DNA from: an uncultured Muribaculaceae bacterium
GTDB taxonomy: Bacteria > Pseudomonadota > Alphaproteobacteria > Rs-D84
DNA length: 64,000 nucleotides
Reading direction: 5' to 3'
Assembly: GCA_964619545.1 (NCBI GenBank)
Contig: CAZUED010000003.1
Coordinates: 163-64,162, forward strand
The translations under genes were made by a program, and so were the position numbers. Each line of letters starts with the position of its first letter. The first letter of the stretch is position 1. Of this stretch, positions 191-56,865 are shown piece by piece. The notes under the pieces are model-generated. The model searched no databases and was not told the origin of the DNA. It worked only from the letters and a program-made list of their open reading frames with translations.

Positions 191-474
191 GATGTCATTC
201 CTATCACAATAGTTATAAATTTTAGTTATAATTTTTACATGGTTCAAAATAATCCGGACTTAAATTTTCCAAATTATACGGCACAGAATATGCCGCCAAA
301 AAATCCATGTGAAACCTGTTTGTTTTGGGGAATCACATGTAATCAATTAATATGCTCGAATTTCCAAAAATATAAAGAAGATACGAAAAAATTTGCGCTG
401 AGCAATGAAATTTCTCCCTTTAACAATTTATATTGATGTGATATAATCAGATGAAAGTAGAGAAGGGGTTTTTT

Positions 475-2439
475 ATGAAAAGCCGGTTTTTAGCGTATTT
501 TGTGTTCGCATTTAGCGCTGTTTTTGTATTGCCTGGGGCGGCTGATCCAATTGCTGGATATGGCCAGACTGCGCCTGTTGCAACAACAAGCGCAACACAA
601 TCTCCGCGTGCAACAGGTCAGCGCGGCGGTCGTGCGACCCCCAGCCCCACTGCGGCAGCCAAAGTTGGCGCAACACAATCAGCGTCGCGTAGTGTGTCAT
701 CAAGAAGCGTTGGTGCGCGTGCAACCGCAACATCTGCGCAAAATATAGTTTCGCGTGGCACCAGTTCGCGTACAACAAGCAGTCGCGCGGTACGCGCTCG
801 TACAGCAAGTTCAGCAACAACGGCCAGGGTTTCGCTGACCGGTACCGCAATTCGCGGCAGCAGCACTTCGACCACAACACTTGCTAACAAGCTTTATACC
901 GGGACATATTCTAATATTATTGATCCTACAACCGGTTTAATTTCAGCAGATGCCTACAGCAACTGTCTTGAATCTTATTATGCTTGCATGGATGAAATTT
1001 GTACGGCGCGTAATCCAGGACAACGTCGTTGCGCGTGCGCCGGTCGAGTAAAAACTTTTGCTAATGTAGAAGCGCAATTGCAGACAGCACGTGAAGATTT
1101 ATTAAAAGTTTCGGGACAATTGTCATTATTAATCCTTACCAAGGGCAAGGATGTTACGTCTGCATTTACTTTGACCGAGTCAGAAAAAGTTTTGAATTGC
1201 GTTTCTTGGCGTGATGCCAAAACCGCTGGAAAGACCGATGAATGGTGCGAAAGTCATACCATGCTGTCTGGCACAACAAGTTGCACCAGCTATTCTGGGC
1301 CACCGGCGTTTGTAGCGGAATACTGCTCTAGTAACGATTTTGTTCTGGGTGGATCCGATTGGATGAATGTCTTGAATGGGGCGGATTCTGATATACTTTC
1401 CAGCTTGGAAACCTATGCCAGCACGATAAACCAAGTCAATGTTATTACCACAGATAACACAAACAGCTTGTTCAGTTCATTCATGAATGTCAGCGATATA
1501 GTTGGACAGCTGGACGGCACCGGGAATTTGTTCAGTTCAACAGAAACGGCGCCCGATACTTTGGCCCAGCTGTGGGGGTATAACTTGTTCCAGTACGCCC
1601 ATAACAATGTTTGCAATCGTGTTCTGAATTCTTGCTTTAACGGAATTTATGAAGCATGCGGAAGCAATAACGGAACAACTGGTCCATATAATTATAACAA
1701 TACAATAACTGTTAACAATGATGGATCGGACTTGAATTTTGTTGTTCCAGGATCGTCTTCTTCAACCAGCACGAATACAGCAACTTGCTTTGGTTATACA
1801 AGCAGCAGTGGCGATCCATATTCAACGTTGCGCCGGCCAGTGGCGGATTCGCGCCGCAGCATTTTGCAAAAGTATGCACTGGACGCAAATGCTGATTGCG
1901 ATACGTATGGTGAAGAGTTGAAAAAGCAAGCGACAAATATGGCATATCAAAAGATAGCCGCGACTCAGTACCTGCAGCAAAAGCGTCTTGAATTCGCAAA
2001 TGAAGATGAAACAAATACAACTGCTGAATTAGTTGCTGCCAAAGAGTCTTATCGCAGTTGCGTCAGCGAGGTTTATGATTGCTATGACCAACAGACACGG
2101 ACTAATCCAACCTGGACTGCGGCACGTGTAAAGAACTATTGCTCGCAAAGCGCGGAAGTTCCCAGCTGCTATGAAACGATGGTATGTGATCAAGAAGTTG
2201 GTCGTTTGATTGATGTCGCAGACAGCATAACATGCACAAGTACCCAAGATTGGGCAGCGAACACTTGCCGCAATGTTGTCAGATTGTCAGAAATCTTGAA
2301 TGGCACGGGCGCGGCAGCGGTTTCGACTGGTGCGAACTCGGCAGGTTTGCGCGAGTACTGCTTGCAAAGCACCCCAGGTGTATATGGCGAAGGCAGTATA
2401 CGTGATTTTGGCACCGGCTGGGGTCCAGGAAGTTTATAA
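475..2439 (+). CDS. large secreted Cys-rich protein, paralog A, function unknown
   Basis: Signal peptide MKSRFLAYFVFAFSAVFVLPGAADP. A Ser/Thr/Ala/Arg-rich low-complexity linker is followed by many Cys. Shares the motif C-x3-Y-x2-CMD-x2-C...RC-x-C-x2-R with the downstream ORF. RBS precedes the ATG at 475. Confidence 0.75.
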   Translation: MKSRFLAYFVFAFSAVFVLPGAADPIAGYGQTAPVATTSATQSPRATGQRGGRATPSPTAAAKVGATQSASRSVSSRSVGARATATSAQNIVSRGTSSRTTSSRAVRARTASSATTARVSLTGTAIRGSSTSTTTLANKLYTGTYSNIIDPTTGLISADAYSNCLESYYACMDEICTARNPGQRRCACAGRVKTFANVEAQLQTAREDLLKVSGQLSLLILTKGKDVTSAFTLTESEKVLNCVSWRDAKTAGKTDEWCESHTMLSGTTSCTSYSGPPAFVAEYCSSNDFVLGGSDWMNVLNGADSDILSSLETYASTINQVNVITTDNTNSLFSSFMNVSDIVGQLDGTGNLFSSTETAPDTLAQLWGYNLFQYAHNNVCNRVLNSCFNGIYEACGSNNGTTGPYNYNNTITVNNDGSDLNFVVPGSSSSTSTNTATCFGYTSSSGDPYSTLRRPVADSRRSILQKYALDANADCDTYGEELKKQATNMAYQKIAATQYLQQKRLEFANEDETNTTAELVAAKESYRSCVSEVYDCYDQQTRTNPTWTAARVKNYCSQSAEVPSCYETMVCDQEVGRLIDVADSITCTSTQDWAANTCRNVVRLSEILNGTGAAAVSTGANSAGLREYCLQSTPGVYGEGSIRDFGTGWGPGSL

Positions 2440-2460: not shown

Positions 2461-4704
2461 ATGAATAAAAATTCCAGATTTTGCAAAAAGTTTGGTGCAT
2501 GTTTATCTATGCCTTATGCTGTTTTTTTGATGTTCTGCATGGGTATAGCTGATGCAGCTGAAGTAAGTCGTGCACTTCCCGGAAAACAAGTTGCTATTTC
2601 AACGACATTCCAAAATCAGATACAATCCGAAGATGAAGTACCGGTGATAGAGCCCGGACAAGTTTCTGTACCCATATCGGTTTCACGTACGGCAGCATTG
2701 CCTGCACAAAGAAGTCAAAATGAAATAAGATCACGCACAGCGGCGACAGCTGTTCCACGCGATGCACTGAATGAAGCTGCGCGCCAAGTTGGACGCAGCG
2801 CCAAGGCCGAGGCAGCAAGTATGAATGCAACGGCACCAGTTCGTCGTGCGGGGATTTCTTTACGTCCGACAGCTGCCGAGGTTGGCGGCCGTGCAGCAGT
2901 TGTTACAGCTGGTACAACTACAGCTTCAAGTGTCAGCGCGGCAAGTCGTAGATTAACTTCACGTGCTGCAACTACAGGTCCCGATACAGCTGGGATTGAC
3001 GATACAATAGCTGTGACGGAATCATGCCAAGCGCAATATACCGACTGCATGGATCAGTTCTGCGCTGTCATTGATGCCAACCAAAAAAGATGCAGCTGCA
3101 GTAATCGTCTTTCTTCTTATTCGCGTGTAGAAACATCTGTAAAAGAAGCAAACAATCAGCTGAATGACGTCGCACAACGCATACGCTATGTGGGATTGTC
3201 TGCGGATGAAATTAGTGCGATTATGAGCGCGACCGAGGCTGAGATTGCATTACAAAATACCCGTGATACAACAGAATCACGGAATATGCTGGATGAAATT
3301 GAAAATCTTATTCGTTCGCCGGAAAATGTTGTTGCGCAAAGTTCTTCATCAACGATTGATTTGGACTTGAGTTTTGATGCAGAGGCTGATCCCATGGAGT
3401 TGTTTAATCTTTCCGGATCATCAACAGGGTCATTTTCTAATTTGCGTGGAACGGATTTGCTAAATGCCGCAAAAAAACGTTGCCAATCTGTGCTGACATC
3501 ATGCAAAGCCAAAGGTGCAAACGTCAATCAAATTACAGGTCGGTATGAAATAGAGATAGATAAAGACTGCATAACATATGAAAAAGGTCTGGAAAAGATG
3601 AATCAGACCTTGCGCACAAATGTTCGCAGTGCAACACAAATGTTGCAAAAGGCAAGACTTGCTGTGCTTGAAAATCATAACTCTTACGACGCCAAGGGTT
3701 GTGTTGGTGCTTTGGAACAATGCATGCACGACGAAATGGTTTGCGGAAGCGACTATTCTAAATGCCTTGATCCGACTAAACGCTTTATAGACGAAAGCGG
3801 AAAAGTAGTTTTGGGTCAAAATATTTCCATGATAAGAAACATTATGGCGAATTTTGATAATTCTATAATAGACGAGTCGTTTATAGGTTCAGCATGGGCA
3901 ATGTCGGGAATGTCTGGTTGTGATCAGGCACCAAATAATAATGGCAAATGCATTGTGAAGTATTTGTTGGGAAAAATCGGAATGGGCGAAGATAGCAGCT
4001 CTGGTTTGTGTCGCCCGGTTTTAGACAAGTGTCAAAAACAAACGTATGATGGCCGCGGCAAATATAATCCGAAAAACGCAATAGTCGTGGGCTATATACA
4101 GCGCGCAATGACTAATATTCGTGCTGCCCAGGAAAATATAATTTCAGATTACGCATCGACATGTATGGCGGAAATTGCAACTTGCTATTCCAAGCAGGTT
4201 ACGCAAATCAATGCATGGTCATCAAATGCCAACGTTCAGAATGTGTATTCAGTTCTGAAAGGCGCATGTCGTAATGTTGCACTGACATGCAGCTATGCGG
4301 TTTTCTCGGCCGACCAAACTGTGAATGGTTGCCCAATAACCAGCAATGATATGGCTGGAACCGATGGTGATAGGCAAAGCAAATGTATAGAAAACATTTC
4401 GGATATATTCTATCAATCAATGTTGTGTCCAGATTATTCGACATGGGTCCCGGCACAGACAGGTGCTATCGCAGGCACTATGTATCCTTATTCGCCCGAT
4501 ACACCGATCAGAGTGCATGTTAACGAGCGCTGTGTATGCCAATCAGGATATGGCGTAAATGCGGGTAGTTGTGAACAATGCCCGACCGGATACGCATTCA
4601 ATGCAAATTGCACTTATGCCAGTGCATCCCAAGGTTGTCCGATTATAGGATGCGGTTGCCCAGCGGGTACGACTTGGAATACGACTGCATCTGCGTGCCA
4701 ATAA
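2461..4704 (+). CDS. large secreted Cys-rich protein, paralog B, function unknown
   Basis: Hydrophobic N-terminus. An Ala/Thr/Ser/Arg-rich linker precedes the same CMD-containing Cys motif (ESCQAQYTDCMDQFCAVIDANQKRCSCSNR) and many further Cys. Tandem with paralog A. Confidence 0.75.
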   Translation: MNKNSRFCKKFGACLSMPYAVFLMFCMGIADAAEVSRALPGKQVAISTTFQNQIQSEDEVPVIEPGQVSVPISVSRTAALPAQRSQNEIRSRTAATAVPRDALNEAARQVGRSAKAEAASMNATAPVRRAGISLRPTAAEVGGRAAVVTAGTTTASSVSAASRRLTSRAATTGPDTAGIDDTIAVTESCQAQYTDCMDQFCAVIDANQKRCSCSNRLSSYSRVETSVKEANNQLNDVAQRIRYVGLSADEISAIMSATEAEIALQNTRDTTESRNMLDEIENLIRSPENVVAQSSSSTIDLDLSFDAEADPMELFNLSGSSTGSFSNLRGTDLLNAAKKRCQSVLTSCKAKGANVNQITGRYEIEIDKDCITYEKGLEKMNQTLRTNVRSATQMLQKARLAVLENHNSYDAKGCVGALEQCMHDEMVCGSDYSKCLDPTKRFIDESGKVVLGQNISMIRNIMANFDNSIIDESFIGSAWAMSGMSGCDQAPNNNGKCIVKYLLGKIGMGEDSSSGLCRPVLDKCQKQTYDGRGKYNPKNAIVVGYIQRAMTNIRAAQENIISDYASTCMAEIATCYSKQVTQINAWSSNANVQNVYSVLKGACRNVALTCSYAVFSADQTVNGCPITSNDMAGTDGDRQSKCIENISDIFYQSMLCPDYSTWVPAQTGAIAGTMYPYSPDTPIRVHVNERCVCQSGYGVNAGSCEQCPTGYAFNANCTYASASQGCPIIGCGCPAGTTWNTTASACQ

Positions 4705-11097: not shown

Positions 11098-11209
11098 TTC
11101 AAAGTGCAATTGTGGTGTCGGCTTCACCGACAACCTATAAATAATTATTTTACCTGTGAGCAACGCGAACACATTAATTGCACATTGCACTTTGCTAATT
11201 GCTCATTAG
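11098..11209. repeat. left copy of a ~110-bp repeat element, forming an inverted pair with 18612-18722
   Basis: caattgtggtgtcggcttcaccga...ataattatt...tgtgagcaacgcgaacacattaattgcac matches the reverse complement of 18620-18704 at about 80%. The copy carries caaagtgcaat / attgcactttg termini and repeated (g)caattg sub-motifs. Confidence 0.8.
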
Positions 11210-11616
11210 TTTTCCAGCCATCCTTTGATTTTTGCAGCTTGCGCGATAGTTTGCATTGCATCATTCCACAGGGCAGCTTTGGCATTTTCTGACCATTCAT
11301 GCTGATGTGGAGCGCGCCGCAAGTCTCCAAATTCTTTCAAGACTTCCAGTTGTTTGGGCGTTAGCTTGCCGGCCAGGTAAAGCCGAGTGATAAGAGTTTC
11401 AACATCAATAGCTTCACAAGGATATGGATTTCGTGCCACTGGTCTTCCGATACGCATACGCGCAATGCTGGCAGATGAAAGCGCATCCTTTTGTCGGCAA
11501 GTTAAAAACCAAAACCACATTTGATCGGCGTCTTGAAATTTTCTTTCTGGTGCGTCAAAAGCCGTAGAAGGTATATTTTTTTGTTTTAAGTTGGCGTTCA
11601 TTTTTTCTCTCTCCAT
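11206..11616 (-). CDS. hypothetical protein inside the inverted-repeat-bounded cassette
   Basis: 136-aa ORF with no recognisable motif. Its stop abuts the left inverted repeat, and it has its own upstream region. Confidence 0.45.
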   Translation of the reverse strand: MEREKMNANLKQKNIPSTAFDAPERKFQDADQMWFWFLTCRQKDALSSASIARMRIGRPVARNPYPCEAIDVETLITRLYLAGKLTPKQLEVLKEFGDLRRAPHQHEWSENAKAALWNDAMQTIAQAAKIKGWLEN

Positions 11617-11790: not shown

Positions 11791-13938
11791 TTATCTATCT
11801 TGACCGATTTTGGTAGATGTTCCGGATTTCAGGTTGTCATTGGCTATACGAAGTTGTACTTGGTATGCGTTTATACAATCTGTCATACTGGAATTAGTCA
11901 TAGAATCGCCACATTTTTCAAATTGAGATTCAGATAATTTCAATGTTGTTGACATTCCTTTCAGCAAGTCAGAATCAAATTTAAGCTGCTTTCTGGCATC
12001 TGTTTTATTTGATGCGGAACGTATTACGCTCAAGTTGTTATTCAAGCAAGAAATCATATCTGATGTGCTGTAAACCTCATTACAATCACGAGCACCATTT
12101 AATCTTACATTACCTTTAGAAGATTTGCTTGCACTAGTAGAAGAATCATCAGTAGTATCGCCGCCAGCGGCCTGTAATTTTGATACCAGAATGGATTTCT
12201 CCATCTGAGTCTTTAACCGCTTCATAGTAACGTCCAAAAAGTCATACTGACGTTTCATCTGTTGAGTAATAATTGTCGTTTTCAATGCGATTGTATCCGC
12301 CATCATTTGTTTGTCAGCGGCCGAGGTTGGATTTTTTGTACTTCCAATGTTATAAGCATGGGTGCTGCACAAAGCGATGGCTGAATTGATATAATCATTT
12401 CCGCTGTCTTCTTTGCACCCGTTATCAGCTGTGCCAATGGAAAGAATTGCGTCCAGATTGTTGTTTTTGACACACAGATTGCGATCTGGCAAACGTCTTA
12501 GCTGTGCCAAATTACTTATAACAGCTAACTGATCAGAATTTGTTGCACACCATTTTATTGCGTCGGCTGCAGATTCTTCGCCGCGAATTACACTTGGTGC
12601 GTCCTGGGCAATTATTCTGCGCAAAGTTTCTATATCAATCGTCGATTGCTTTTTGCGATTTTTAAATAACACGGAATTATCAATTGCGTCAGATGCACAT
12701 GCAACGCGAATCCCGCCAGAACTGCCCGCATCCATATCCAGCCAGTTTTGTTGAATGTCCTCTTGATTATTTAACATCTTTAACAAAGTGCAATGGGGCT
12801 GTTGAGATTTTACTCGGCGGTTCCCCTGAGCATCATTTTCGTATGCTATAGGCCAGTATCCGCGGCCGGTTTTTGTATCATAATCGCAAGTTATGCTTGT
12901 CTTATCATCAATTTTTTCAGTTTGATTTTGAGAACATGTCTCGCACATATATTGCCCCCAGACATTGCAAGAGCCATTCAGCATCATGTAAATATCTGTT
13001 ATATCAACGCCCAAAGATTGCGCTAAAACCAACGCATCATACAACTCGTCCAAAACTGCATCATACGGATCAAAGAATTTATTTGCCTTATCCTTGAACG
13101 CTTTGACTCGCCGAGGACCCTGGCAATTATTTCCATTAGAATCACAACGCGCATAATCAAAAACATTTTGCATTGTGTTTTTTAAATCTTTCATCGCAAC
13201 ATCAGAATTTTCAAGCTGGGTCAGTATTTGACCACCAATTTGTTCGCGTGCCAAAACATCTGCCGATACACCCGCATTGACTGCATTAGTAATTGTTTTA
13301 TCGGGTGCTGATGCGCTTGCTGCTTGGGCCGCGGCCTGTGCTTGCTGGGCCGCCAGTTGTTTTTGCTCTTCCAATGCTTGCTGAACAGCCGCGGCGGATT
13401 GAGCAGATTGTTCTTGCATCTGTTGCTGCATCTGCATCATCTGCGCTTGCATTTGTTCTATCTGAGTGTTTGATTGCGCCGCTGCTGCATTTGCAGCCTG
13501 CGTTGTTGCAGCATTTTGCGCCTCGGTTGCTTTTGCAATAGCGGCACTTACCATCTGTGCCGCCAATGTTTGGATTAAATCGTCACCATATTGCTCGCAC
13601 GAAGGATTACTTTTCACGCAACCTTTCACAATCGGAAGCGCCAATTCCATGGTTGTGCAGCCCGCGCACTTTGGCTGGGCGCAACGCAAAATAAGTGAAT
13701 TACAATTTCCAAAATCTGCAACCGGCCTTTGTTGCCCCAGTGGATTAGGGTTTATCGCGGCATTCCACTGATTGTTGTTCAATGCGCCGGCACTGCCGGT
13801 AAATACAGTTCTGTTACCTGAAATTCCGCCAGAATTTGCAAAAGAAGGCCCTGGTCCGCCGATAGGACTGTCGCCATAGGCAGTCCCCAGTGCAAAGCAG
13901 GCGGTACAAACAGATAAAAATCTGATTAAAATCTTCAT
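11791..13938 (-). CDS. large secreted Cys-rich, Gln/Ala-rich coiled-coil protein; last gene of the VirB8/9/10-like operon
   Basis: Signal peptide MKILIRFLSVCTACFALGTAYG. Low-complexity run AQAAAQAASASAPDK with QQMQ repeats, and many Cys (CAQPKCAGC, CETCSQNQ). Starts 67 nt downstream of the VirB10-like stop. Confidence 0.7.
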   Translation of the reverse strand: MKILIRFLSVCTACFALGTAYGDSPIGGPGPSFANSGGISGNRTVFTGSAGALNNNQWNAAINPNPLGQQRPVADFGNCNSLILRCAQPKCAGCTTMELALPIVKGCVKSNPSCEQYGDDLIQTLAAQMVSAAIAKATEAQNAATTQAANAAAAQSNTQIEQMQAQMMQMQQQMQEQSAQSAAAVQQALEEQKQLAAQQAQAAAQAASASAPDKTITNAVNAGVSADVLAREQIGGQILTQLENSDVAMKDLKNTMQNVFDYARCDSNGNNCQGPRRVKAFKDKANKFFDPYDAVLDELYDALVLAQSLGVDITDIYMMLNGSCNVWGQYMCETCSQNQTEKIDDKTSITCDYDTKTGRGYWPIAYENDAQGNRRVKSQQPHCTLLKMLNNQEDIQQNWLDMDAGSSGGIRVACASDAIDNSVLFKNRKKQSTIDIETLRRIIAQDAPSVIRGEESAADAIKWCATNSDQLAVISNLAQLRRLPDRNLCVKNNNLDAILSIGTADNGCKEDSGNDYINSAIALCSTHAYNIGSTKNPTSAADKQMMADTIALKTTIITQQMKRQYDFLDVTMKRLKTQMEKSILVSKLQAAGGDTTDDSSTSASKSSKGNVRLNGARDCNEVYSTSDMISCLNNNLSVIRSASNKTDARKQLKFDSDLLKGMSTTLKLSESQFEKCGDSMTNSSMTDCINAYQVQLRIANDNLKSGTSTKIGQDR

Positions 13939-14005
13939 ATTCTCTCTTGAAGCAAGTTTATCATAAAATGCGAGGAAATGCAAGCCTCCCTTTAACAAGT
14001 GGAAG

Positions 14006-16300
14006 CTAAATTATTGGGGGAAAGCAATCACCGCCAGCTGCTGGACAGCAGTTGAATCCTTGGCTACCCATGTCTGTATAAACCTCGCCCGTGCAACAGC
14101 CGTTTAAGTCTGGCGATGTACCATCTTCGCAGGTCAGTGCCGTCGTGGTGGTGGTTGCGGGTGGTGTTTCTTTGGCAAATGGATTTTTTATTGTACCGTC
14201 CGCATTGTATTGCAGGCCCAAAACTTGCTCGTTATATTCTTTTGTTCCCTTAGTTAATTGCTGGCCATTGGTTCCGACAATACCGGTTTGCTGCTGGTTA
14301 TTCCAAATAGCCTGCTGTTGGGCATTATTTATCGCTTGATACTGAATTGCTTTACAATATGCAACAACGGTACGATAGTCATAGCCAGCCTCGGAAATAG
14401 TTTGTGCTGTTACACCCGCACTCAGCTGTCCATTAGTGCCGCAGTATTTCTGTATATCAAATCCGCGAACTTGTCCAACCCATGATGCATCATCATAATT
14501 TGGTATGGCTTCGGACGCTTTATGAGAAACATATTGCGAAGGAGTCAAATTGCAATTTTCAAGCCCATTCACCTTGTCGCAGAAGTTCACAATTAAATCC
14601 TTTGGCGAATAAACCGTTATGCGCGTACCAGCGGCAATAGAAAATGGAGGAACCGTGTTGTCCAGCATATCAACCATTAATTTTTGCGCAACTCTGTTCC
14701 ATGTTGAAATAATTTCATTTTTTGCCAGCTCGGACGAGCGAACTTGACCACTTTGTGTAACCGTATTGTTATCCAGATCAATTTGATTTACGAACTTGTC
14801 TGAAATTGGCGCAATCAAATTAACAGCGGCAGGCACAACTGCCGTTATCATCGGCATTATGAATTGCTCCATATAATCTGTGCTGCCGTGACCTGGAACG
14901 CCAACGCGACCTTGGCTGTCGCCAGCAAAGGGCTCGTCCCCGGCAAAGCTGAATTCAACTCCGTCCGGTCTAACAAAGCGATACCATTTGATTTGCATAC
15001 GACCGATGGCTTTATACGGACCCGGCATTTCACCAGTCAAATAACCCAACATCAATGTTCCGGTCGGAATTATTATAGTGCGTCCGTTATCAGAATAGAC
15101 ATGTCTATCAACTGTTGCCTGAACTGGCAACATGGATTGACGCTCTATCTTTGCATCTGCACGTATTTCATTTACGATTGTCGCAGGAATAGGCTTGTAC
15201 TGGCGCAGAACAAAAGTGCGGTCATAGGGCTCGGTCGATATAAATGCATCGCCCGCAGATGAAGGTACCAGGTTACTTTCTGGTTTATATGCAAATGCTG
15301 GATTTATCTCTGACAAACGTTTTGCACCACCCGCAGCTCTGGGTAATTCTGCCGCTGCTGCATTTACTTGTCTTGCTCGATTTTGTACGCGTGCGTTCGC
15401 CGGATTGGACAATACAGGAACATTCGCGCTTGATGCAATAAATCCGATTCGATCAAAGTCAGAGCCTATTTTTCTGCTGGGATTTTTAAGATCGGTAATA
15501 AATCCGGTATCCAAATTATATTCACCCAGTGGGCTGGTGCAGTCCAAGTCAGAAAAAGGATGAAAAAGATAATGTCCACCTTGGGGACGTATCCATCCGA
15601 TTTGCTTTCCATATGCGTCATAGCCGCCGAATGCAAATTCATAGCAGCGCTCGGTATTTAATGCTGCTGTAGTTACTGGCGCAGGCAAATTTTCTGTTGC
15701 AAATTTTGGCGCAAGGGTTTCGACCGCCTCGGCCACAGGATTAATTTCAGGGGCAGTCAAAACAGGTTCTGGTTCTGGCAATTGCACTGGTTTTTGTGGT
15801 TCTACTTTTTTTGTAGATAAAGCAACAGGAATTTCAGCAGTTTGTGCCATTTTGGCCTCGGCACTGGCGGGGTAATACTCAATAAGTACTTTAATGCCGG
15901 TTGGTTCCAAGTCTGCAGCAGGCGTCCAAGTTAATTCTGCACTGCAAGGAATGCCAAGTGTAATTTCGCCCATATTTGTACAGGTGGTATCTATGCTTAA
16001 TCCATCAATTTTTTGGGATAGTTTTACGCTGGGAATCATTGCGACTGCATTCGAAGAAATTTTAATAGTCTGTGTCTGTTTTTCGCCAACTGGAATGTTT
16101 TGCCATGCGATCTCAGATGGATCCATGGTCAGCTCCAGAACTGGTTTTGATTCGGACTTTGGTTTATCCTTGGAATCGCGACCCATCAGAATAACCAGCA
16201 AAACAACGACTACCAAAAAAGCAGCGAACATCACGATCCACAGCACATGCCGTGGCATGGACTTTTTTACATCGCTGATAGTGGTTGTTATCATCGCCAA
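14006..16300 (-). CDS. VirB10/TrbI/TraB-like T4SS core protein with an extended Gln-rich, Cys-rich C-terminal tail
   Basis: N-terminal TM (HVLWIVMFAAFLVVVVLLVILMG), a Pro-rich linker (PEPEPVLTAPEINPV), then a VirB10-like barrel region (GRTIIIPTGTLMLGYLTGEMPGPYKAIGRMQIKWYRFVRPDGVEF...AAGTRITVY). About 250 extra residues follow, ending CEDGTSPDLNGCCTG...NCCPAAGGDCF. Confidence 0.75.
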   Translation of the reverse strand: MAMITTTISDVKKSMPRHVLWIVMFAAFLVVVVLLVILMGRDSKDKPKSESKPVLELTMDPSEIAWQNIPVGEKQTQTIKISSNAVAMIPSVKLSQKIDGLSIDTTCTNMGEITLGIPCSAELTWTPAADLEPTGIKVLIEYYPASAEAKMAQTAEIPVALSTKKVEPQKPVQLPEPEPVLTAPEINPVAEAVETLAPKFATENLPAPVTTAALNTERCYEFAFGGYDAYGKQIGWIRPQGGHYLFHPFSDLDCTSPLGEYNLDTGFITDLKNPSRKIGSDFDRIGFIASSANVPVLSNPANARVQNRARQVNAAAAELPRAAGGAKRLSEINPAFAYKPESNLVPSSAGDAFISTEPYDRTFVLRQYKPIPATIVNEIRADAKIERQSMLPVQATVDRHVYSDNGRTIIIPTGTLMLGYLTGEMPGPYKAIGRMQIKWYRFVRPDGVEFSFAGDEPFAGDSQGRVGVPGHGSTDYMEQFIMPMITAVVPAAVNLIAPISDKFVNQIDLDNNTVTQSGQVRSSELAKNEIISTWNRVAQKLMVDMLDNTVPPFSIAAGTRITVYSPKDLIVNFCDKVNGLENCNLTPSQYVSHKASEAIPNYDDASWVGQVRGFDIQKYCGTNGQLSAGVTAQTISEAGYDYRTVVAYCKAIQYQAINNAQQQAIWNNQQQTGIVGTNGQQLTKGTKEYNEQVLGLQYNADGTIKNPFAKETPPATTTTTALTCEDGTSPDLNGCCTGEVYTDMGSQGFNCCPAAGGDCFPPII

Positions 16301-16321: not shown

Positions 16322-17797
16322 TTATTGAACTCTTACTACATTGCAAGCGGTCCCTTGGAACTTTGTCATTTTATCACAAAGCTTTTGTGCGCTTTCAATG
16401 TCCGACATGGGCCCAATACGCAGGCGATAAAGCCGCGCGGTTGCAGCGCCCGTACCCAGATCTCCAACTCCAGACTCGTCAACTGCGAAATAAACCATAT
16501 TACGATAAGGATTCAGCAGTCCTTGTCCATCATCACCACTGAATTTCGCCAGCAGCTTTGTCCAATAATCATTCAGTGCTTTGACAGAAGTATCGGATTT
16601 CAGCTCAACAGCGACACCTGCTTGATTAGAGGTTATAATTGGAATGTCGCTTTGCGGCAGGAACGAGCCCGCAGTATTGCGAACACTTGGCAGCATATTA
16701 ACGCCAGTCGCACCAGTTGATGCGCCATTTGTCGGCATTACCATCGGCGGTTGAAATCCATTAACCTGTTGGTCAGTGATTGGCTGCAACATTGCACCAG
16801 AATCAACCGGCATATTTCCATAACCAACATTTTGCAAGGATTGTGATGATTGCATGCTTTGCATAACGTTAGATTCAGCCAGTGCCATGACGCTGGAAGT
16901 GTCAGCAATCAAGAAGGGTTTTGCGCGACGCTTGATACAAACAATTCGCTGACCACTGCGCAATACCATATCCCCAACTGCTTCTACAATCAACAGGCGT
17001 CCGTTTTCACCATCAGTACGAAAACCGACTGGCGATTCACCACCTTCGACCAAGATAGAAACAACTGGTCTTTGAGTCATTGCGATAACCTTGTCGCCAA
17101 AATCAATATAGGTAAAGATTCTGTCGCGCCATACGCGTTCAGGCGCAATTACAAAGTCATCAGGATTCGGGACAAAAATGTCTAAATCAAAGCGGAACTC
17201 TGACGGATCAATTTTCATTGTTTTTATCCAGCCGTAATCTTCGCCGTCAACGCCCAAGGTAGAAGTTGAATTTTTCTTTGGGAAAATAGAGTTCATACCA
17301 GAAGTTTGACCAGCAGAAGAGCTGGTTGCATTTGGTATGCTAGAACGCCCATCCAGAACAACATCAACCTGGGAATAAGAAATTTCGCTGGAATTAGCAG
17401 GTTCGGAACGCAGATAGAATAAATATTTATTTCCTGATTTGCCAGTAATAATCAAATTTGTGTCGCTGCCCTGATTTGTTGCAACCGGTGTCATATAAAT
17501 TGTTCTGCCACCTTTTTGCGGATCCATTTGGAACAAACCTTCGTTACCAATGACGCCATCTTCGATAATTTCGCCTTCGGGCAAATTTATCATGGTTACC
17601 ATTCCATTACGCAAACGAATCGGAAGAACTGCGCCTGGCGCCCATGTCAGTTGGGCAAAGCCAGGTTTAGAACTGCCTGTGGCCATATTTGCCTCTGGGT
17701 TATCCCACGCATCCTGGACACCATAATCTTCGGCACTTGCCCCGCCAATACAAAAGGCAAAAATCAAAGGGCAAAGAGCAAATAATTTTATATTCAT
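16322..17797 (-). CDS. VirB9/TraK/CagX-like T4SS outer-membrane core protein, about twice the usual VirB9 size
   Basis: Signal peptide MNIKLFALCPLIFAFCIGGASA. N-terminal VirB9 signature GMVTMINLPEGEIIEDGVIGNEGLFQMDPQKGGRTIYMTPVATNQGSDTNLIITGKSGNKYLFYLRSEP (TNL...T...Y.F.L pattern). Confidence 0.75.
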   Translation of the reverse strand: MNIKLFALCPLIFAFCIGGASAEDYGVQDAWDNPEANMATGSSKPGFAQLTWAPGAVLPIRLRNGMVTMINLPEGEIIEDGVIGNEGLFQMDPQKGGRTIYMTPVATNQGSDTNLIITGKSGNKYLFYLRSEPANSSEISYSQVDVVLDGRSSIPNATSSSAGQTSGMNSIFPKKNSTSTLGVDGEDYGWIKTMKIDPSEFRFDLDIFVPNPDDFVIAPERVWRDRIFTYIDFGDKVIAMTQRPVVSILVEGGESPVGFRTDGENGRLLIVEAVGDMVLRSGQRIVCIKRRAKPFLIADTSSVMALAESNVMQSMQSSQSLQNVGYGNMPVDSGAMLQPITDQQVNGFQPPMVMPTNGASTGATGVNMLPSVRNTAGSFLPQSDIPIITSNQAGVAVELKSDTSVKALNDYWTKLLAKFSGDDGQGLLNPYRNMVYFAVDESGVGDLGTGAATARLYRLRIGPMSDIESAQKLCDKMTKFQGTACNVVRVQ

Positions 17798-17876: not shown

Positions 17877-18530
17877 CTATTGCATAAAATCGAGCGGATC
17901 ACTTCCCCCTGATTCCACCCGGTATTCCGAGACTTGCAGCCCCAGCGGATTTTCCTGTCTGTTGCCCCATTTCAATTCTGGCGTGTAGGTCAATCCTATT
18001 ACAATAGTAAAATCTTTTGGCGGGGTATGTCCAGCGCTTTCTGATGTGCAAAACCATCTGAATTTTACAGCGAATTTATCACTTCCGCGTGGCTCAATTG
18101 CGGGCGATTGAAACTCTACAGGGCACGAAAACTGAACGTTCGGAGAATCCTGCATGAAAGCAGACCATAACTGAGTTGTTGCAAATCTGGCATAAACCTC
18201 TCTAGATGACCAGATATAAACTGGGCCGTCTGGGCTGCGCCACTTGTACCGCATGGTATTTACATTGGGTGTTATTTCGTTGCGCGCGCGAATATATTCC
18301 TTGATGAAGCTTTCCTTGTAATCGATCATAGTTTTGTTATTTACTGGCAGTTGTTGAATTTCGATTATTTGACCCTCGACACGGCGCGCATTCAGCAAGA
18401 AAACCTGGGTCCTATTCAATGGGAACATGTTAGAGACTGCGAAAATCATGGCCAAAGCAGTTGCAATTGCTGCGGCCAGCACGAAAGACATCATGCGCGC
18501 GGTAAAAGCATTGGGTGTGACAACTGCCAT
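17877..18530 (-). CDS. VirB8/TraE-like bitopic inner-membrane T4SS protein
   Basis: Single N-terminal TM (MMSFVLAAAIATALAMIFAVSNMF), a ~180-aa periplasmic domain, and the near-C-terminal motif NPLGLQVSEYRVE, matching the conserved VirB8 NPxG(F/L)xV...Y signature. Confidence 0.75.
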   Translation of the reverse strand: MAVVTPNAFTARMMSFVLAAAIATALAMIFAVSNMFPLNRTQVFLLNARRVEGQIIEIQQLPVNNKTMIDYKESFIKEYIRARNEITPNVNTMRYKWRSPDGPVYIWSSREVYARFATTQLWSAFMQDSPNVQFSCPVEFQSPAIEPRGSDKFAVKFRWFCTSESAGHTPPKDFTIVIGLTYTPELKWGNRQENPLGLQVSEYRVESGGSDPLDFMQ

Positions 18531-18611: not shown

Positions 18612-18722
18612 ATCAAAGTGCAATTAACGTGTTCGCTGCGCTCACAATTAAATAATTATAAAAGCATCGGTGAATGCCGACACCACAATTGCTAATTGAA
18701 TTTTGTACATTGCACATTAAAC
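18612..18722. repeat. right copy of the ~110-bp repeat element, in inverted orientation relative to 11098-11209
   Basis: Reverse complement reads caattgtggtgtcggcattcaccga...ataattatt...tgtgagcgcagcgaacacgttaattgcactttga, aligning with the left copy. Confidence 0.8.
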
Positions 18723-18873
18723 TTTTCCCTTGCCTTAAAAAAACTAATAGGGTAGAATACTTTTCGCTTGATTTTGGTAATAAATGTGTTATTGTGCGCG
18801 AACGAAAATAAGATAAACTGGGGTGGAGTTCGCACGATTCCTGCGGTGCAGGCGCGTGGCAGACAAGAGTTTT

Positions 18874-18947
18874 AGGGGCATAGTTCAACGGTAGAATAGA
18901 GGTCTCCAAAACCTTTGGTGTGGGTTCGATTCCTACTGCCCCTGCCA
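18874..18947 (+). tRNA. trnW: tRNA-Trp (CCA)
   Basis: aggggcatagttcaacggtagaatagaggtctCCAaaacc...ggttcgattcctactgcccctgcca; cloverleaf with anticodon CCA; canonical position before secE. Confidence 0.9.
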
Positions 18948-19018
18948 AAAAGCTTTTGTGATGGGTATAAAAATGTCCACCAAAAGCCAAGCGACCAGTT
19001 AAAAAGTTTGGAACACGT

Positions 19019-36237: not shown

Positions 36238-36744
36238 ATGAGATTTGGAAAAGTTCTTATTGGATTGGGCTTTGCGGTTATTACTCAGGGCGCAATCGCC
36301 GGACAAAATATTGAAATTTATTATTCGCCATCATGCCCCCATTGTCACCATGCAATGGAGTTTATTGATAAAACTTTGAGCGTGCAGTACAAAGATTTGC
36401 AGGTCAACAAGGTAAATGTTGTCGAACAAAAAAATCGTGATGCATTCATGAATGTTTTGAAAAAATGTGAATACAAATCTGGTGGTGTTCCAGTGATGGT
36501 CGTAAATGGTAAATGCTTCCAAGGTTATGCCGAATTCATGAATACAGAAATAATGCAGGCAATGGGCCCGGCCGATGTTGCTAGTGATAAAGCTGTCGCA
36601 ACAGAAAAATCTGAATCTGTTGCCCAGCTTCCGCCCGAACAAATACAGCCGGCAGACAAGGGAACATCAACAATGCTTTATGTTTTGCTGGGTTTGTTGG
36701 TAGCAGCGCTGGGCGTAGTATTGTTCGTTAAGAAGAAAAAATAA
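36238..36744 (+). CDS. DsbA-like thiol:disulfide oxidoreductase (CPHC) with a C-terminal membrane anchor
   Basis: Signal peptide; CPHC active site identical to DsbA; C-terminal TM MLYVLLGLLVAALGVVLFVKKKK. Confidence 0.6.
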   Translation: MRFGKVLIGLGFAVITQGAIAGQNIEIYYSPSCPHCHHAMEFIDKTLSVQYKDLQVNKVNVVEQKNRDAFMNVLKKCEYKSGGVPVMVVNGKCFQGYAEFMNTEIMQAMGPADVASDKAVATEKSESVAQLPPEQIQPADKGTSTMLYVLLGLLVAALGVVLFVKKKK

Positions 36745-45582: not shown

Positions 45583-46275
45583 GTGAGCGTCATGGATTTT
45601 CCGGCAGATTATGATACAAAGATGTTTCCGGAAACACGCTACCTTGGGATGGCGCGGGCTTTTGCGATTTGGTCCGCGATTTTGTTTTTATTAATTGCTG
45701 GACTTTCTTGGGCATTGGTTTGGACGATGCGTGCCAGCAGGGTAGAACCTGTTTTGGTTTCAATTTCTGCCGATGGTGCAACTTGGACGGCAGTATTGGA
45801 CGGAACAGGTCGCTTAAATTATTCTGTATCGCGCGCAATGCAAGAGGCAACAGTCGGAAAATTCACAAAACTTTGGTTCAGTATTTCGCGTGATGCAAAA
45901 GAAAATGAATCTAACTGGTGTCAATGCGAACAAACAAAATGTTGGGATGACGATGCGGCTGCGCCGCAGTGCAAAGTTTGTTGCGCTTCGGGCACCAGTT
46001 TATTTTCTAATTTCTTACAAGTTGTGAATGGTGACTTTCGTGAGCGGGCCGCGGCCGGCGAAGAATGGTCGATTGTTTCTGATTCGATTCGTGCAACACC
46101 TGTGGGTGAAATCTCTGACAATGGTGGATTATGGCGTGTTACTGCCAGTGTGAAAATGGGCGCGGGTCGGACGCAAAAGATAGAGGCGTTTGCACGTATC
46201 ATCAAAGCATCCGAAGGCTATCCATCAACAATGGGTTATTATGTCGCAGATTTTCATGCATATCCCGGGGAATAA
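45583..46275 (+). CDS. bitopic membrane protein with a Cys-cluster periplasmic domain (VirB8-like topology)
   Basis: Short cytoplasmic N-terminus, one TM (AFAIWSAILFLLIAGLSWALVW), a ~180-aa C-terminal domain and a CQCEQTKCWDD...CKVCC cluster. Confidence 0.5.
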   Translation: MSVMDFPADYDTKMFPETRYLGMARAFAIWSAILFLLIAGLSWALVWTMRASRVEPVLVSISADGATWTAVLDGTGRLNYSVSRAMQEATVGKFTKLWFSISRDAKENESNWCQCEQTKCWDDDAAAPQCKVCCASGTSLFSNFLQVVNGDFRERAAAGEEWSIVSDSIRATPVGEISDNGGLWRVTASVKMGAGRTQKIEAFARIIKASEGYPSTMGYYVADFHAYPGE

Positions 46276-49656: not shown

Positions 49657-49726
49657 GGGAAAATAAAAAAAACGCGCTATGCGCGTCTGTTTGATGCCTC
49701 AATTATATCAAATTTTTCATAAAAAA

Positions 49727-51268: not shown

Positions 51269-51371
51269 GTCTCAAACCATACAACACGAATTTTAATTTG
51301 CAATGATTTTTCTTGCTTTGTTATAAAAAAAAAACTACTCTGTTTGTCAATAAGAACAAGAGGATTCAGTC

Positions 51372-52388: not shown

Positions 52389-52411
52389 TAATTTGTAAAA
52401 TAGAGAGAGAA

Positions 52412-53047: not shown

Positions 53048-53074
53048 AAAAAACGCGGTGGTTCCCCGCGTTTT

Positions 53075-54215: not shown

Positions 54216-54232
54216 TTTATAACCTTTGTTTG

Positions 54233-54580: not shown

Positions 54581-54590
54581 TTTTTTCTCC

Positions 54591-56842: not shown

Positions 56843-56865
56843 GGGGAACTCCTGACTTTTAACTT

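What the first reader, a model, noticed from the sequence alone, without database searches (positions are those of the whole stretch)
14006..14800. VirB10-like protein with a unique Gln-rich, Cys-clustered C-terminal extension
After the VirB10 barrel region the protein continues about 250 residues (QQQAIWNNQQQTGIVGTNGQQ..., then CEDGTSPDLNGCCTGEVYTDMGSQGFNCCPAAGGDCFPPII). Canonical VirB10/TrbI ends shortly after the barrel. In assembled core complexes the VirB10 C-terminus forms the outer-membrane channel and cap, so a large extra domain there would sit on the cell surface. It could be a built-in adhesin or cap, possibly disulfide-linked to the co-encoded Cys-rich protein.
Basis: partly seen in the sequence, partly recalled or inferred. 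Interest (0 to 1): 0.55.

Follow-up and report, generated by a model that had tools for sequence, protein, structure and literature searches.

The report
VirB10 with conserved cysteine-knob tail
A secretion-channel protein (VirB10) of tiny-genome gut alphaproteobacteria carries a real, strongly conserved 195-residue extra tail ending in a small six-cysteine knob that these bacteria also attach to other envelope proteins; the tail is a new domain, but it is not unique to this protein and is probably periplasmic rather than a surface adhesin.

Summary
The ORF at 14006-16300 (minus strand, 764 aa) is one uninterrupted VirB10 gene in a chromosomal virB8-virB9-virB10 cluster. The TrbI/VirB10 barrel ends at aa 569, so the extension is about 195 aa (nt 14009-14590), not about 250. 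It is not unique. At least 325 species-level genomes of the uncultured gut clade Rs-D84 / Candidatus Enterousia encode it, under strong purifying selection (dN/dS about 0.07-0.09) and with 10 near-invariant cysteines. Plasmid VirB10s stop 24 residues after the barrel, and none of 72,556 plasmids carries the extension.

The last 41 residues (C-x10-CC-x14-CC-x6-C-F-P-P) form a separate module. It also ends a conserved bitopic inner-membrane protein of about 700 aa, occurs in one to three copies in small secreted proteins, and follows the N-terminal hydrophobic helix of an 84-aa protein. It matches no Pfam, NCBIfam, PDB or Foldseek entry.

The co-encoded Cys-rich protein sits next to virB10 in only 8 of 80 related loci, and both proteins have even cysteine counts, so a dedicated intermolecular disulfide is unsupported. 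Surface exposure is also unsupported, because the outer membrane is crossed by the internal antenna hairpin, not the C-terminus.

My best reading is a disulfide-stabilised periplasmic docking appendage on the outer-membrane core complex. It is a new variant of a known kind.

The parts
14006..16300 (-). virB10-like gene, 764 aa (the listed start is TTG; the likely true start is the ATG two codons downstream, as in homologue P0001); TAG stop at 14006-14008
   Evidence: Single ORF. Pfam TrbI 67 bits against a cut-off of 35. Foldseek hits to CagY, X. citri VirB10, TrwE, ComB10 and TraF at E 1e-9 to 1e-6. More than 100 full-length homologues. Stop codon.
16184..16252 (-). N-terminal transmembrane helix (aa 17-39), the inner-membrane anchor
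   Evidence: Hydrophobic stretch HVLWIVMFAAFLVVVVLLVILMG in the translation; AF2 helix 17-39.
15806..16138 (-). Periplasmic PapD/ASH-like Ig beta-sandwich (aa 55-165) with invariant C107 and C119; an unusual N-terminal accessory domain
   Evidence: AF2 pLDDT about 90. Foldseek hits to MSP, CEP192 ASH and PapD at E 1e-4 to 1e-5. Invariant Cys.
15428..15655 (-). Small conserved beta domain (aa 216-291) with invariant C219 and C254, following a Pro-rich linker (aa 166-215)
   Evidence: AF2 pLDDT about 86; column conservation 0.76.
14591..15250 (-). VirB10/TrbI beta-barrel (aa 351-570), including the two-helix antenna (aa 474-547, nt 14660-14881)
   Evidence: Pfam aa 365-569. NCBIfam VirB10 and ComB10 domain hits end at aa 569. 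AF2 helices 474-505 and 522-547. Conservation 0.81-0.91. dN/dS 0.003-0.006.
14009..14590 (-). C-terminal extension (aa 571-764, 194 aa), the corrected extent of the finding
   Evidence: Lies beyond the end of every VirB10 profile or structure match. Conserved in 325 genomes. 10 Cys in 106 of 110 homologues and 12 in the other four. dN/dS 0.065-0.094. No Pfam, NCBIfam or PDB match.
14174..14482 (-). Core of the extension (aa 607-709): SWVGQVRSF motif, a helical subdomain with invariant C620 and C649 (long helix aa 642-670 ending in the conserved N-Q-Q), a variable Q/N-rich loop (aa 670-686), and the conserved YNEQVLGLxYNxDGxIxNPF motif
   Evidence: AF2 extension-only model: pLDDT 86-91 over aa 615-665, with a long helix at model residues 77-108, i.e. 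aa 642-673; the full-length model places the helix at aa 642-670. Conservation 0.66-0.78, dropping to 0.46 in the loop.
14132..14173 (-). Pro/Thr/Ala-rich flexible linker (aa 710-723)
   Evidence: pLDDT below 50; conservation 0.41.
14009..14131 (-). Terminal 41-aa six-cysteine module (aa 724-764): C-E-D-G-x2-P-D-x-N-G-C-C-x-G-E-x-Y-T-D-M-G-x-Q-G-F-N-C-C-P-x2-G-G-D-C-F-P-P-I-I. It is shared with other envelope proteins.
   Evidence: Conservation 0.89. AF2 pLDDT 87-90 with a beta-hairpin. The same module ends or repeats in other architectures. hhalign gives 98.5% probability over the module only.
16322..17797 (-). virB9 (CagX domain aa 49-290) with its own C-terminal extension ending in a weak SPOR-like domain; invariant unpaired Cys287
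   Evidence: Pfam; Cys analysis over 74 orthologues.
17877..18530 (-). virB8
   Evidence: Pfam VirB8, E 6.6e-14; the virB8-virB9-virB10 order is conserved in 73 of 80 related loci.
11791..13998 (-). Co-encoded Cys/Gln-rich secreted protein (likely true start is the ATG at 13938). It is a sub-clade-specific insertion, not a general partner of the extension.
   Evidence: No Pfam or NCBIfam hit. Present next to virB10 in 8 of 80 loci. 22 Cys in the mature part.

Best explanation
The extension is a clade-specific, disulfide-stabilised periplasmic appendage on the VirB10 subunit of the outer-membrane core complex of Rs-D84 / Candidatus Enterousia, a group of uncultured animal-gut alphaproteobacteria with genomes below 1 Mb.

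Shown:
- The extension is translated in frame after a complete barrel.
- It consists of a short Cys loop (C574, C583), a helical subdomain with a second invariant Cys pair (C620, C649), a flexible Pro/Thr linker, and a terminal 41-residue six-Cys module.
- It is under purifying selection.
- The terminal module is an autonomous domain that the same clade places at the extracytoplasmic C-terminus of other envelope proteins.

Inferred:
- The 10 cysteines form five intramolecular disulfides. An exported DsbA-like CPHC protein is encoded in the same window.
- VirB10 is exported with its N-terminus anchored in the inner membrane, and only the antenna hairpin crosses the outer membrane. The 14 or so copies of the extension per machine would therefore hang from the O-layer in the periplasm.
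- The linker-tethered knob works as a docking module. It would bind a common envelope ligand: another module-bearing protein, an outer-membrane component or a cell-wall glycan.
- This would anchor or decorate the core complex, much as extra subunits or domains (X. citri VirB7 N0 domain, Cag3/CagT/CagM) decorate other expanded T4SS core complexes, and as small modular domains such as LysM or SPOR tether diverse envelope proteins to one ligand.
For: Anatomy: single ORF; barrel ends at aa 569. AF2 gives confident sub-structures at aa 615-665 and 725-764, separated by low-confidence linkers.

Selection and conservation: 325 genomes; per-region conservation of the module is 0.89, as high as the barrel; dN/dS 0.065-0.094.

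Disulfides: Cys counts are even. The extension has 10 Cys in 106 of 110 homologues and 12 in the other four. All 14 VirB10 Cys are invariant or nearly so, and they fall in domain-local pairs. Other exported proteins of the window also have even counts. An exported, C-terminally anchored thioredoxin-fold protein with the DsbA motif CPHC is at 36238-36744.

Modularity and extracytoplasmic location of the module:
- A profile search of 1.84 billion representatives finds the last 46 or so positions at the C-terminus of bitopic proteins of about 700-850 aa (cytoplasmic coiled coil, one TM helix, a Pro/Glu-rich linker of about 200 aa, then the module).
- It also finds the module in 1-3 copies in signal-peptide proteins of 200-330 aa.
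- It also finds it about 12 residues after the N-terminal hydrophobic helix (membrane anchor or signal peptide) of an 84-aa protein.
- Only the module is shared.
- The bitopic family has 754 homologues in Alphaproteobacteria MAGs, on contigs of up to about 0.9 Mb, next to gcrA.

Diderm envelope: bamA, lpxD, skp and ompA are in the window.

Precedents: C-terminal extensions on X. citri VirB7 and VirB8 (PMC6536674; PMC3093366); VirB10 as the subunit that bridges the inner and outer membranes (PMC12857230).
Against: - No experiment or coordinate-level analysis places the extension. I could not inspect where the last barrel residue points in solved core complexes (outside, lumen or membrane side).
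- AF2 models are monomeric with low pTM (0.33-0.37), so the position of the extension relative to the barrel and ring is unknown.
- The ligand of the module is unknown, and no fold match gives a hint. The best Foldseek hits (bovine antibody knob, granulin) have E above 1.
- The clade is fermentative and lacks respiratory chains (PMC12306168). Such organisms often lack a DsbB-type reoxidation route. Only a DsbA-like candidate was seen, so disulfide formation is inferred, not shown.
- The remaining T4SS genes (virB4, virB6, virB11, virD4) are not in the window or within 10 kb of the cluster in a complete related chromosome. Even the function of the machine is unknown.
Confidence: 0.45

Rival explanations
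1. Surface-exposed adhesin or cap. The extension, or at least its knob, reaches the cell surface and binds a partner or host cell, making VirB10 itself the contact organ of a partner-dependent bacterium.
For: Published metabolic reconstruction suggests that the clade depends on other cells (PMC12306168), so an adhesin would make sense. Small disulfide-rich knobs with conserved aromatic residues (Y741, F749, F760) are typical of extracellular binding modules. The window encodes several other large Cys-rich secreted proteins. The CagY precedent shows that a VirB10 homologue can carry host-interacting accessory regions (own knowledge; bioRxiv 10.1101/294769, listed).
Against: The outer membrane is crossed by the internal antenna hairpin, not by the C-terminus. 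No outer-membrane translocation element was found in the extension: no Pfam or NCBIfam hit, including no autotransporter or sorting-signal model. The same module occurs about 12 residues after the N-terminal hydrophobic helix of an 84-aa protein and at the end of inner-membrane-anchored proteins, which fits a periplasmic site more naturally. Fourteen or so 21-kDa disulfide-bonded domains could not pass a pore of about 35-45 A (dimensions in PMC6536674).
Confidence: 0.15
2. Internal plug or gate. The 14 or so extensions fold back into the chamber of the core complex and regulate opening of the channel.
For: The C-terminal direction of the barrel's last strand was not determined, so a lumen-facing exit is not excluded. 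Plug densities exist in expanded T4SSs such as Dot/Icm (bioRxiv 10.1101/312009). Flexible linkers would allow movement.
Against: The terminal module is shared with proteins that are not T4SS subunits, and it occurs as tandem repeats in secreted proteins. That argues for a general binding function rather than a channel-specific plug. There is no structural evidence.
Confidence: 0.1
3. Metal-binding or redox-sensing cysteine cluster. The CC pairs bind Zn, Fe or Cu, or act as a thiol switch, instead of forming structural disulfides.
For: Two invariant vicinal CC pairs. The gut habitat is anaerobic and the clade has no respiratory chain, so a reoxidation route for a Dsb system is uncertain.
Against: Cys numbers stay even when extra Cys appear (12 instead of 10). 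Every extracytoplasmic domain of VirB10 has its own Cys pair. Other exported proteins in the window have even counts. An exported CPHC (DsbA-type) protein is encoded nearby. No His, Asp or Cys spacing typical of known zinc ribbons was seen, and no such family was hit.
Confidence: 0.1
4. Covalent partner of the co-encoded Cys-rich 735-aa protein through intermolecular disulfides (the second part of the first reader's idea).
For: The two genes are nearly contiguous: the listed ORF start of the 735-aa gene lies 8 nt after the virB10 stop, and its likely ATG lies 68 nt after it. There is a precedent for an intermolecular disulfide in a core complex, VirB7-VirB9 in A. tumefaciens (Anderson et al. 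1996, cited in PMC2653234).
Against: A homologue of the 735-aa gene is adjacent to virB10 in only 8 of 80 related loci, whereas the extension and its 10 Cys are in all 80. Both proteins have even Cys counts, 14 and 22. The conserved unpaired Cys of the cluster is VirB9 C287.
Confidence: 0.04
5. Artefact: a fused or frameshifted ORF, or chance low-complexity sequence.
For: None found.
Against: Continuous ORF. More than 100 homologues at 100% coverage. 325 genomes. dN/dS below 0.1.
Confidence: 0.01

Closest known systems
Canonical VirB10 / TrbI (A. tumefaciens VirB10, pKM101 TraF, R388 TrwE, X. citri VirB10)
   Same: N-terminal TM anchor, Pro-rich periplasmic linker and a C-terminal beta-barrel with a two-helix antenna; gene order virB8-virB9-virB10.
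   Different: Canonical proteins are about 380-410 aa and end about 24 residues after the barrel, and their genes are followed by virB11 and virD4. Here another 195 residues follow the barrel, there are two extra N-terminal periplasmic domains, and no virB11 or virD4 is adjacent. The NCBIfam VirB10 equivalog score is 59 bits against a cut-off of 220.
Helicobacter pylori CagY (expanded VirB10 homologue)
   Same: Best sequence and fold match for the barrel. It is the known example of a VirB10 homologue with large, cysteine-containing accessory regions (own knowledge).
   Different: CagY's accessory repeats lie N-terminal to the barrel, and the barrel is near its C-terminus (by extrapolation about 40 residues remain). 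There is no sequence similarity to the extension.
Xanthomonas citri VirB7 with a C-terminal N0 domain, and VirB8 with an AQGP-rich tail
   Same: Core T4SS subunits that gained C-terminal extensions in the periplasm. The VirB7 extension is a globular domain that decorates the core complex (PMC3093366; PMC6536674).
   Different: Different subunit and a different fold (N0 against a helical subdomain plus a Cys knob). N0 is a known, widespread domain, whereas the module here has no known relatives.
A. tumefaciens VirB7-VirB9 disulfide-linked heterodimer
   Same: Shows that disulfides can stabilise the outer-membrane core complex (Anderson et al. 1996, via PMC2653234). VirB9 here has an invariant unpaired Cys near the end of its VirB9 domain.
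   Different: That bond involves VirB9 and a lipoprotein, not VirB10. The VirB10 extension has an even Cys count, which is compatible with purely internal disulfides.
Small modular envelope-binding domains (LysM, SPOR) and TonB/TolA-type architecture; functional analogy only
   Same: A short autonomous domain found singly or in tandem, at protein termini, joined by flexible linkers to unrelated envelope proteins, including bitopic inner-membrane proteins with long Pro-rich spacers.
   Different: No sequence or fold similarity. The module is cysteine-rich and its ligand is unknown. This is a 'works like' proposal, not family membership.
Granulin-type and antibody-knob-type disulfide mini-domains
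   Same: Size (about 40 aa), CC pairs and a beta-hairpin core. These are the top, non-significant Foldseek hits.
   Different: E-values of 2.8-3.6 and TM-scores of at most 0.26, so no membership can be claimed.

Membership tests
VirB10 / TrbI (PF03743) | C-terminal TrbI/VirB10 beta-barrel domain above the family threshold | tested here: met
   Pfam 67 bits against a cut-off of 35, aa 365-569, profile positions 2-186 of 188. Foldseek E 2.5e-9 to 6e-6 against CagY, VirB10, TrwE, ComB10 and TraF.
VirB10 / TrbI (PF03743) | Two-helix antenna projection inserted in the barrel | tested here: met
   AF2 helices 474-505 and 522-547 with a conserved loop between them; conservation 0.91. This is a prediction, not an experimental result.
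VirB10 / TrbI (PF03743) | Bitopic topology: short cytoplasmic N-terminus, one TM helix, Pro-rich periplasmic linker | tested here: met
   Hydrophobic helix aa 17-39 and the PEPEP-type stretch within aa 166-215, seen in the sequence and in the AF2 model.
VirB10 / TrbI (PF03743) | Encoded with virB8 and virB9 | tested here: met
   Pfam VirB8 and CagX/VirB9 hits immediately upstream; order conserved in 73-78 of 80 loci.
VirB10 equivalog (NCBIfam NF038091) | Score above the equivalog cut-off (220 bits) | tested here: not met
   59.3 bits. This is a divergent family member, not an equivalog of the canonical VirB10.
Complete VirB/D4-type T4SS | Presence of the VirB4, VirB6, VirB11 and VirD4 genes | not testable with these tools
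   None found among the ORFs scanned in the window or within 10 kb downstream in the complete related chromosome L037. The rest of the genome is not available. In Rickettsiales the genes are scattered (PMC2653234).
Known C-terminal sorting or anchor signals and cell-wall-binding domains (T9SS CTD, PEP-CTERM, LysM, SPOR, OmpA-like and others) | Match to the corresponding Pfam or NCBIfam model | tested here: not met
   No family matched the extension in Pfam at E up to 10. In NCBIfam at E up to 1, no family matched the extension or the module of three other module-bearing proteins.
Granulin / knottin-like disulfide mini-domains | Significant fold or sequence similarity | tested here: not met
New 'six-Cys C-terminal module' (proposed here) | Motif C-x(5-10)-G-C-C-x-G-E-x(12-16)-C-C-x(3-8)-C-[FY]-P-P at or near the C-terminus of an extracytoplasmic segment | tested here: met
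   VirB10 aa 724-764. The same motif is present in VirB10 of 79 of 80 loci, ending 2-4 residues before the stop codon, and in other architectures.

The most novel reading that the evidence does not exclude
The 41-residue six-Cys module could be an undescribed envelope 'address' domain of the Rs-D84 gut alphaproteobacteria. In this reading it brings VirB10, a conserved bitopic coiled-coil protein and several small secreted proteins to one common site. That site would be either a shared docking partner that builds an expanded, clade-specific T4SS outer complex, or, if the knob does reach the surface, a glycan- or cell-binding adhesin that makes the T4SS core itself the attachment organ of an obligate partner-dependent bacterium.
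Probability: 0.15. Interest if true: 0.75.

Novelty: new variant of a known kind. Interest (0 to 1): 0.45.

Why it matters
VirB10 is the only T4SS subunit that spans both membranes. Known elaborations of it (CagY, DotG, F-type TraB) are N-terminal to the barrel. A conserved C-terminal globular appendage would add a new way in which 'expanded' core complexes are built.

The system sits in a widespread but uncultured animal- and human-gut lineage with genomes below 1 Mb, whose published metabolic reconstruction suggests that it lives off other cells. The paper that describes this lineage's genomes does not mention a secretion system (PMC12306168).

The terminal six-Cys module is a candidate new domain family. 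It links VirB10 to other envelope proteins of the clade, which gives an entry point for finding out what these bacteria attach their T4SS to. If the module binds a partner-cell or cell-wall ligand, it would be a direct handle on the lifestyle of the clade.

Tried and rejected
- Frameshift or separate ORF: rejected.
- Barrel at the true C-terminus: rejected.
- Other copies of the module: none elsewhere in the window or within 10 kb of virB10 in 80 related loci. Only the VirB10 copy was found.
- Homology between the helical part of the extension and the Cys-paired helical hairpin of the small secreted module proteins: hhalign supports only the module.
- Homology between the 735-aa neighbour and the two other large Cys-rich ORFs of the window: none.
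- 'orf125' upstream of virB8 as a possible VirB7-like gene: rejected. Its conservation is due to tRNA-Trp on the other strand.
- Presence of the extension on plasmids: none in 72,556 records.
- Literature on C-terminal extensions of VirB10, on the position of the VirB10 C-terminus, and on T4SS in Enterousia or Rs-D84: nothing relevant found. I did not use the X. citri VirB10-msfGFP chimera as evidence for the location of the C-terminus, because the text read does not say where GFP is inserted.
Full report
**What is at the coordinates**

The minus-strand ORF 14006-16300 encodes 764 residues without interruption and ends at a TAG stop.

Pfam places the TrbI/VirB10 domain at aa 365-569, covering positions 2-186 of the 188-position profile (67 bits, cut-off 35). 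The NCBIfam VirB10 and ComB10 domain models also end at aa 569. PDB sequence matches (CagY, X. citri VirB10, ComB10, TrwE) cover only the barrel.

A full-length AlphaFold2 model built on 118 homologues has these parts:
- a TM helix at aa 17-39;
- a confident Ig-like sandwich at aa 55-165;
- a Pro-rich linker;
- a small beta domain at aa 216-291;
- a disordered stretch;
- the barrel at aa 352-570, with antenna helices 474-505 and 522-547.

Foldseek matches the barrel to CagY, VirB10, TrwE, ComB10 and TraF (E 2.5e-9 to 6e-6) and the N-terminal domain to PapD/ASH-type folds.

The extension is therefore aa 571-764 (nt 14009-14590, 194 aa).

**Is it more than chance or an artefact?**

Yes. A protein search returned 894 homologues. 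More than 100 of them are 760-810 aa long, align over the full length at 48-93% identity, and come from uncultured Alphaproteobacteria or 'Rickettsiales' MAGs.

A search of one genome per species with an extension-only alignment confirmed the extension in 325 genomes. Their record titles are Candidatus Enterousia, uncultured Alphaproteobacteria and similar, from termite, ruminant, horse, chicken, mouse and human guts. Candidatus Enterousia is an alphaproteobacterial genus of uncertain placement in the NCBI taxonomy. A published study assigns it to the GTDB order Rs-D84. That study describes genomes below 1 Mb, fermentative metabolism without respiration and a proposed partner-dependent lifestyle, and does not mention secretion systems (PMC12306168).

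Against the two closest loci, dN/dS is 0.065-0.066 for aa 571-723 and 0.091-0.094 for aa 724-764. The barrel gives 0.003-0.006 and the N-terminal periplasmic region 0.06-0.08.

Column conservation across 118 sequences is 0.89 for the terminal module, as high as the barrel (0.81-0.91). It is 0.66-0.78 for the core of the extension and about 0.4 for three variable or linker segments.

**Are canonical VirB10s shorter?**

The barrel (aa 351-570) finds virB10 genes on 134 plasmids. In the two inspected, the CDS (403 aa) ends 24 residues after the residue aligned to aa 569, and virB11 and a virD4-type gene follow. The extension itself finds nothing in 72,556 plasmids. Rickettsia typhi VirB10 is 481 aa (PMC2653234).

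**Anatomy of the extension**

From the alignments and an extension-only AF2 model (48 sequences):
- aa 571-606: a short loop between C574 and C583, then a variable stretch of low confidence.
- aa 607-669: the SWVGQVRSF motif and a helical subdomain (pLDDT 86-91) containing invariant C620 and C649. Its long helix ends in the conserved N-Q-Q.
- aa 670-686: a variable Q/N-rich loop.
- aa 687-709: the conserved motif YNEQVLGLxYNxDGxIxNPF.
- aa 710-723: a Pro/Thr/Ala linker (pLDDT below 50).
- aa 724-764: a six-Cys module (pLDDT 87-90, one beta-hairpin) with the near-invariant pattern C-E-D-G-x2-P-D-x-N-G-C-C-x-G-E-x-Y-T-D-M-G-x-Q-G-F-N-C-C-P-x2-G-G-D-C-F-P-P.

The extension has 10 Cys in 106 of 110 homologues and 12 in the other four. 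In 79 of 80 loci the motif ends 2-4 residues before the stop codon.

**The terminal module is not specific to VirB10**

A profile of the extension was scored against 1.84 billion representative proteins and gave 255 hits. The whole extension matches only VirB10-sized proteins and fragments of them. The last 46 or so profile positions also match the extreme C-terminus of other architectures (sequences):
- Proteins of about 700-850 aa with an N-terminal cytoplasmic coiled-coil region, one central TM helix and a Pro/Glu-rich spacer of about 200 residues. One of them carries two modules.
- Signal-peptide proteins of 200-330 aa with one to three modules.
- An 84-aa protein in which the module follows the N-terminal hydrophobic helix after about 12 residues.

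tblastn of these proteins against the window hits only nt 14009-14131. hhalign of the extension profile against one small secreted member aligns only the module, at 98.5% probability.

The bitopic family has 754 homologues. The few named ones are from Alphaproteobacteria MAGs, on contigs of up to about 0.9 Mb, and the gene sits next to gcrA, a regulator typical of Alphaproteobacteria. Two of the small module proteins lie at the end of a MacB/FtsX-type ABC transporter operon.

The module matches nothing in Pfam, NCBIfam, PDB sequences, or Foldseek against PDB and BFVD. The best Foldseek hits, a bovine antibody knob and granulin, have E above 1.

**Genomic context**

The window is chromosomal. 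It carries dnaX, ompA, skp, lpxD and fabZ to one side, tRNA-Trp, nusG, rplK, rplA, rpoB and rpoC immediately beyond virB8, and bamA, dnaB and ppdK further on.

Across 80 related loci the order nusG / tRNA-Trp / virB8 / virB9 / virB10 / orf136 is conserved: virB8 in 73, virB9 in 78 and orf136 in 73. The 735-aa Cys/Gln-rich gene that follows virB10 here is found next to virB10 in only 8 of 80 loci, all from the window's sub-clade. In a complete related chromosome the genes after the cluster are housekeeping genes (yidC, lspA and others), not virB11 or virD4. As in Rickettsiales, the other T4SS genes, if present, are elsewhere (PMC2653234).

**Disulfides or something else?**

All 14 Cys of VirB10 are invariant or nearly so, and they occur as domain-local pairs: 107/119, 219/254, 574/583 and 620/649, plus six in the module. 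Mature Cys counts are even in VirB10 (14), the 735-aa neighbour (22), two other large Cys-rich secreted ORFs (22 and 32) and VirB8 (2). Lineages with extra Cys in the extension gained two.

The window also encodes an exported thioredoxin-fold protein with a signal peptide, a C-terminal membrane anchor and the DsbA-type active site CPHC (36238-36744). Together these favour intramolecular disulfides, but this remains an inference.

The one conserved unpaired Cys in the cluster is VirB9 C287. It is invariant in 74 orthologues and lies at the end of the VirB9 domain. This recalls the VirB9 Cys that bonds VirB7 in A. tumefaciens (Anderson et al. 1996, cited in PMC2653234).

**Interpretation**

Shown:
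- A complete VirB10 is followed by a conserved, selected, multi-part extension.
- The last part of the extension is an autonomous module that the clade re-uses at extracytoplasmic C-termini.

Inferred:
- VirB10 is anchored in the inner membrane by its N-terminus, and its outer-membrane-spanning element is the internal antenna hairpin. The extension is therefore delivered to the periplasm and has no evident route across the outer membrane.
- The module's other carriers are inner-membrane-anchored proteins with long spacers, secreted proteins with tandem copies, and a protein with almost no spacer. This is the distribution expected of a small periplasmic binding module such as LysM or SPOR, although there is no homology to these.

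I therefore favour a disulfide-stabilised periplasmic appendage that docks the VirB10 ring to a shared envelope ligand or partner (confidence 0.45). It would be analogous to the extra domains and subunits that decorate other expanded core complexes, such as the X. citri VirB7 N0 domain (PMC3093366 and PMC6536674).

The rivals are surface adhesin or cap (0.15), chamber plug (0.10), metal or redox site (0.10), disulfide link to the 735-aa neighbour (0.04) and artefact (0.01).

The main gaps are these:
- I could not examine coordinates to see where the VirB10 C-terminus points in solved complexes.
- The models are monomeric, with pTM 0.33-0.37.
- The ligand is unknown.
- The rest of the T4SS in this genome was not seen.

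**Comparison and novelty**

The protein passes the Pfam VirB10/TrbI tests but not the NCBIfam equivalog threshold (59 against 220 bits). It is a divergent VirB10. Known large VirB10 elaborations (CagY, DotG) are N-terminal to the barrel. I found no report of a C-terminal domain on VirB10 or of the T4SS of this clade in the searchable literature. The extension, and especially its six-Cys module, appear to be undescribed. The finding is best filed as a new variant of a known kind, of moderate interest (0.45).

Noticed in passing
window 16322-17797 (-), Cys287 codon at 16937-16939: VirB9 also has a long C-terminal extension ending in a weak SPOR-like domain (aa 455-489). It has three invariant Cys in the mature protein, so C287, at the end of the VirB9 domain, is a conserved unpaired Cys in 74 orthologues. 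That makes it a candidate for an intermolecular disulfide like VirB7-VirB9 in Agrobacterium.
   Followed up: partly
window 36238-36744 (+): An exported thioredoxin-fold protein with a signal peptide, the DsbA-type active site CPHC and a C-terminal TM anchor. It is followed by a CvpA-family gene and is a candidate periplasmic disulfide oxidase in a lineage without respiratory chains.
   Followed up: partly
window 15806-16138 (-), VirB10 aa 55-165: VirB10 carries a confidently predicted PapD/ASH/MSP-like Ig domain with an invariant Cys pair directly after its TM helix, and a second small beta domain at aa 216-291. Both are unusual for VirB10 and are conserved across the clade.
   Followed up: partly
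window 11791-13998 (-); 451-2439 (+); 2461-4704 (+): Three large (660-750 aa) signal-peptide proteins with 22-32 Cys and no Pfam or NCBIfam hit, and no detectable similarity of the first to the other two. The one after virB10 is present at that position in only 8 of 80 related loci, and its likely true start is the ATG at 13938.
   Followed up: partly
window 11206-11616 (-): A 136-aa ORF with no Pfam hit is the gene actually conserved downstream of virB10 (73 of 80 related loci). Its function is unknown; it may belong to the cluster.
   Followed up: no
window 18613-18990 (-) / 18874-18947 (+): The 125-aa ORF upstream of virB8 is spurious. Its apparent conservation across loci is tRNA-Trp on the opposite strand, which precedes nusG-rplK-rplA...rpoB-rpoC. 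The virB8-10 cluster abuts this core region in most related genomes.
   Followed up: yes
window 48820-60190: A run of phage-like genes: T7-type terminase RNaseH-like domain, Terminase_6N, tail tubular protein, Phage_capsid_2, T7 capsid assembly protein and a weak cell-wall hydrolase hit. This could be a prophage remnant or GTA-like element in a genome of about 0.9 Mb.
   Followed up: no
window 45583-46275 (+): A second, weak VirB8-like ORF (Pfam E 5e-4, below the gathering score) directly after bamA, followed by two ORFs with no hits (46284-46934, 46945-47805). This may be a duplicated or divergent T4SS piece, as in Rickettsiales.
   Followed up: no
L001, L002, L006, L037, L044, L059, L073: Several public MAGs that carry this alphaproteobacterial locus, including a complete 716-kb chromosome (OZ246409.1), are titled 'uncultured Muribaculaceae bacterium'. 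These are probably mislabelled records.
   Followed up: no
P0001 (93% identical homologue); window 14006-14008: In the closest protein cluster the stop codon is replaced by Gln and the protein runs on for 13 residues (QPLLVKGRLAFPRIL). This matches the window's downstream reading frame, so the strict C-terminal position of the module is not absolute, or that sequence carries an error.
   Followed up: no
L081 5584-6336; L087 6001-6255; L082 6001-8220: Small module-bearing proteins (250 aa and 84 aa) lie at the end of a conserved MacB/FtsX-type ABC transporter operon. The bitopic module protein of about 740 aa lies next to gcrA and a prepilin-peptidase-like gene.
   Followed up: partly
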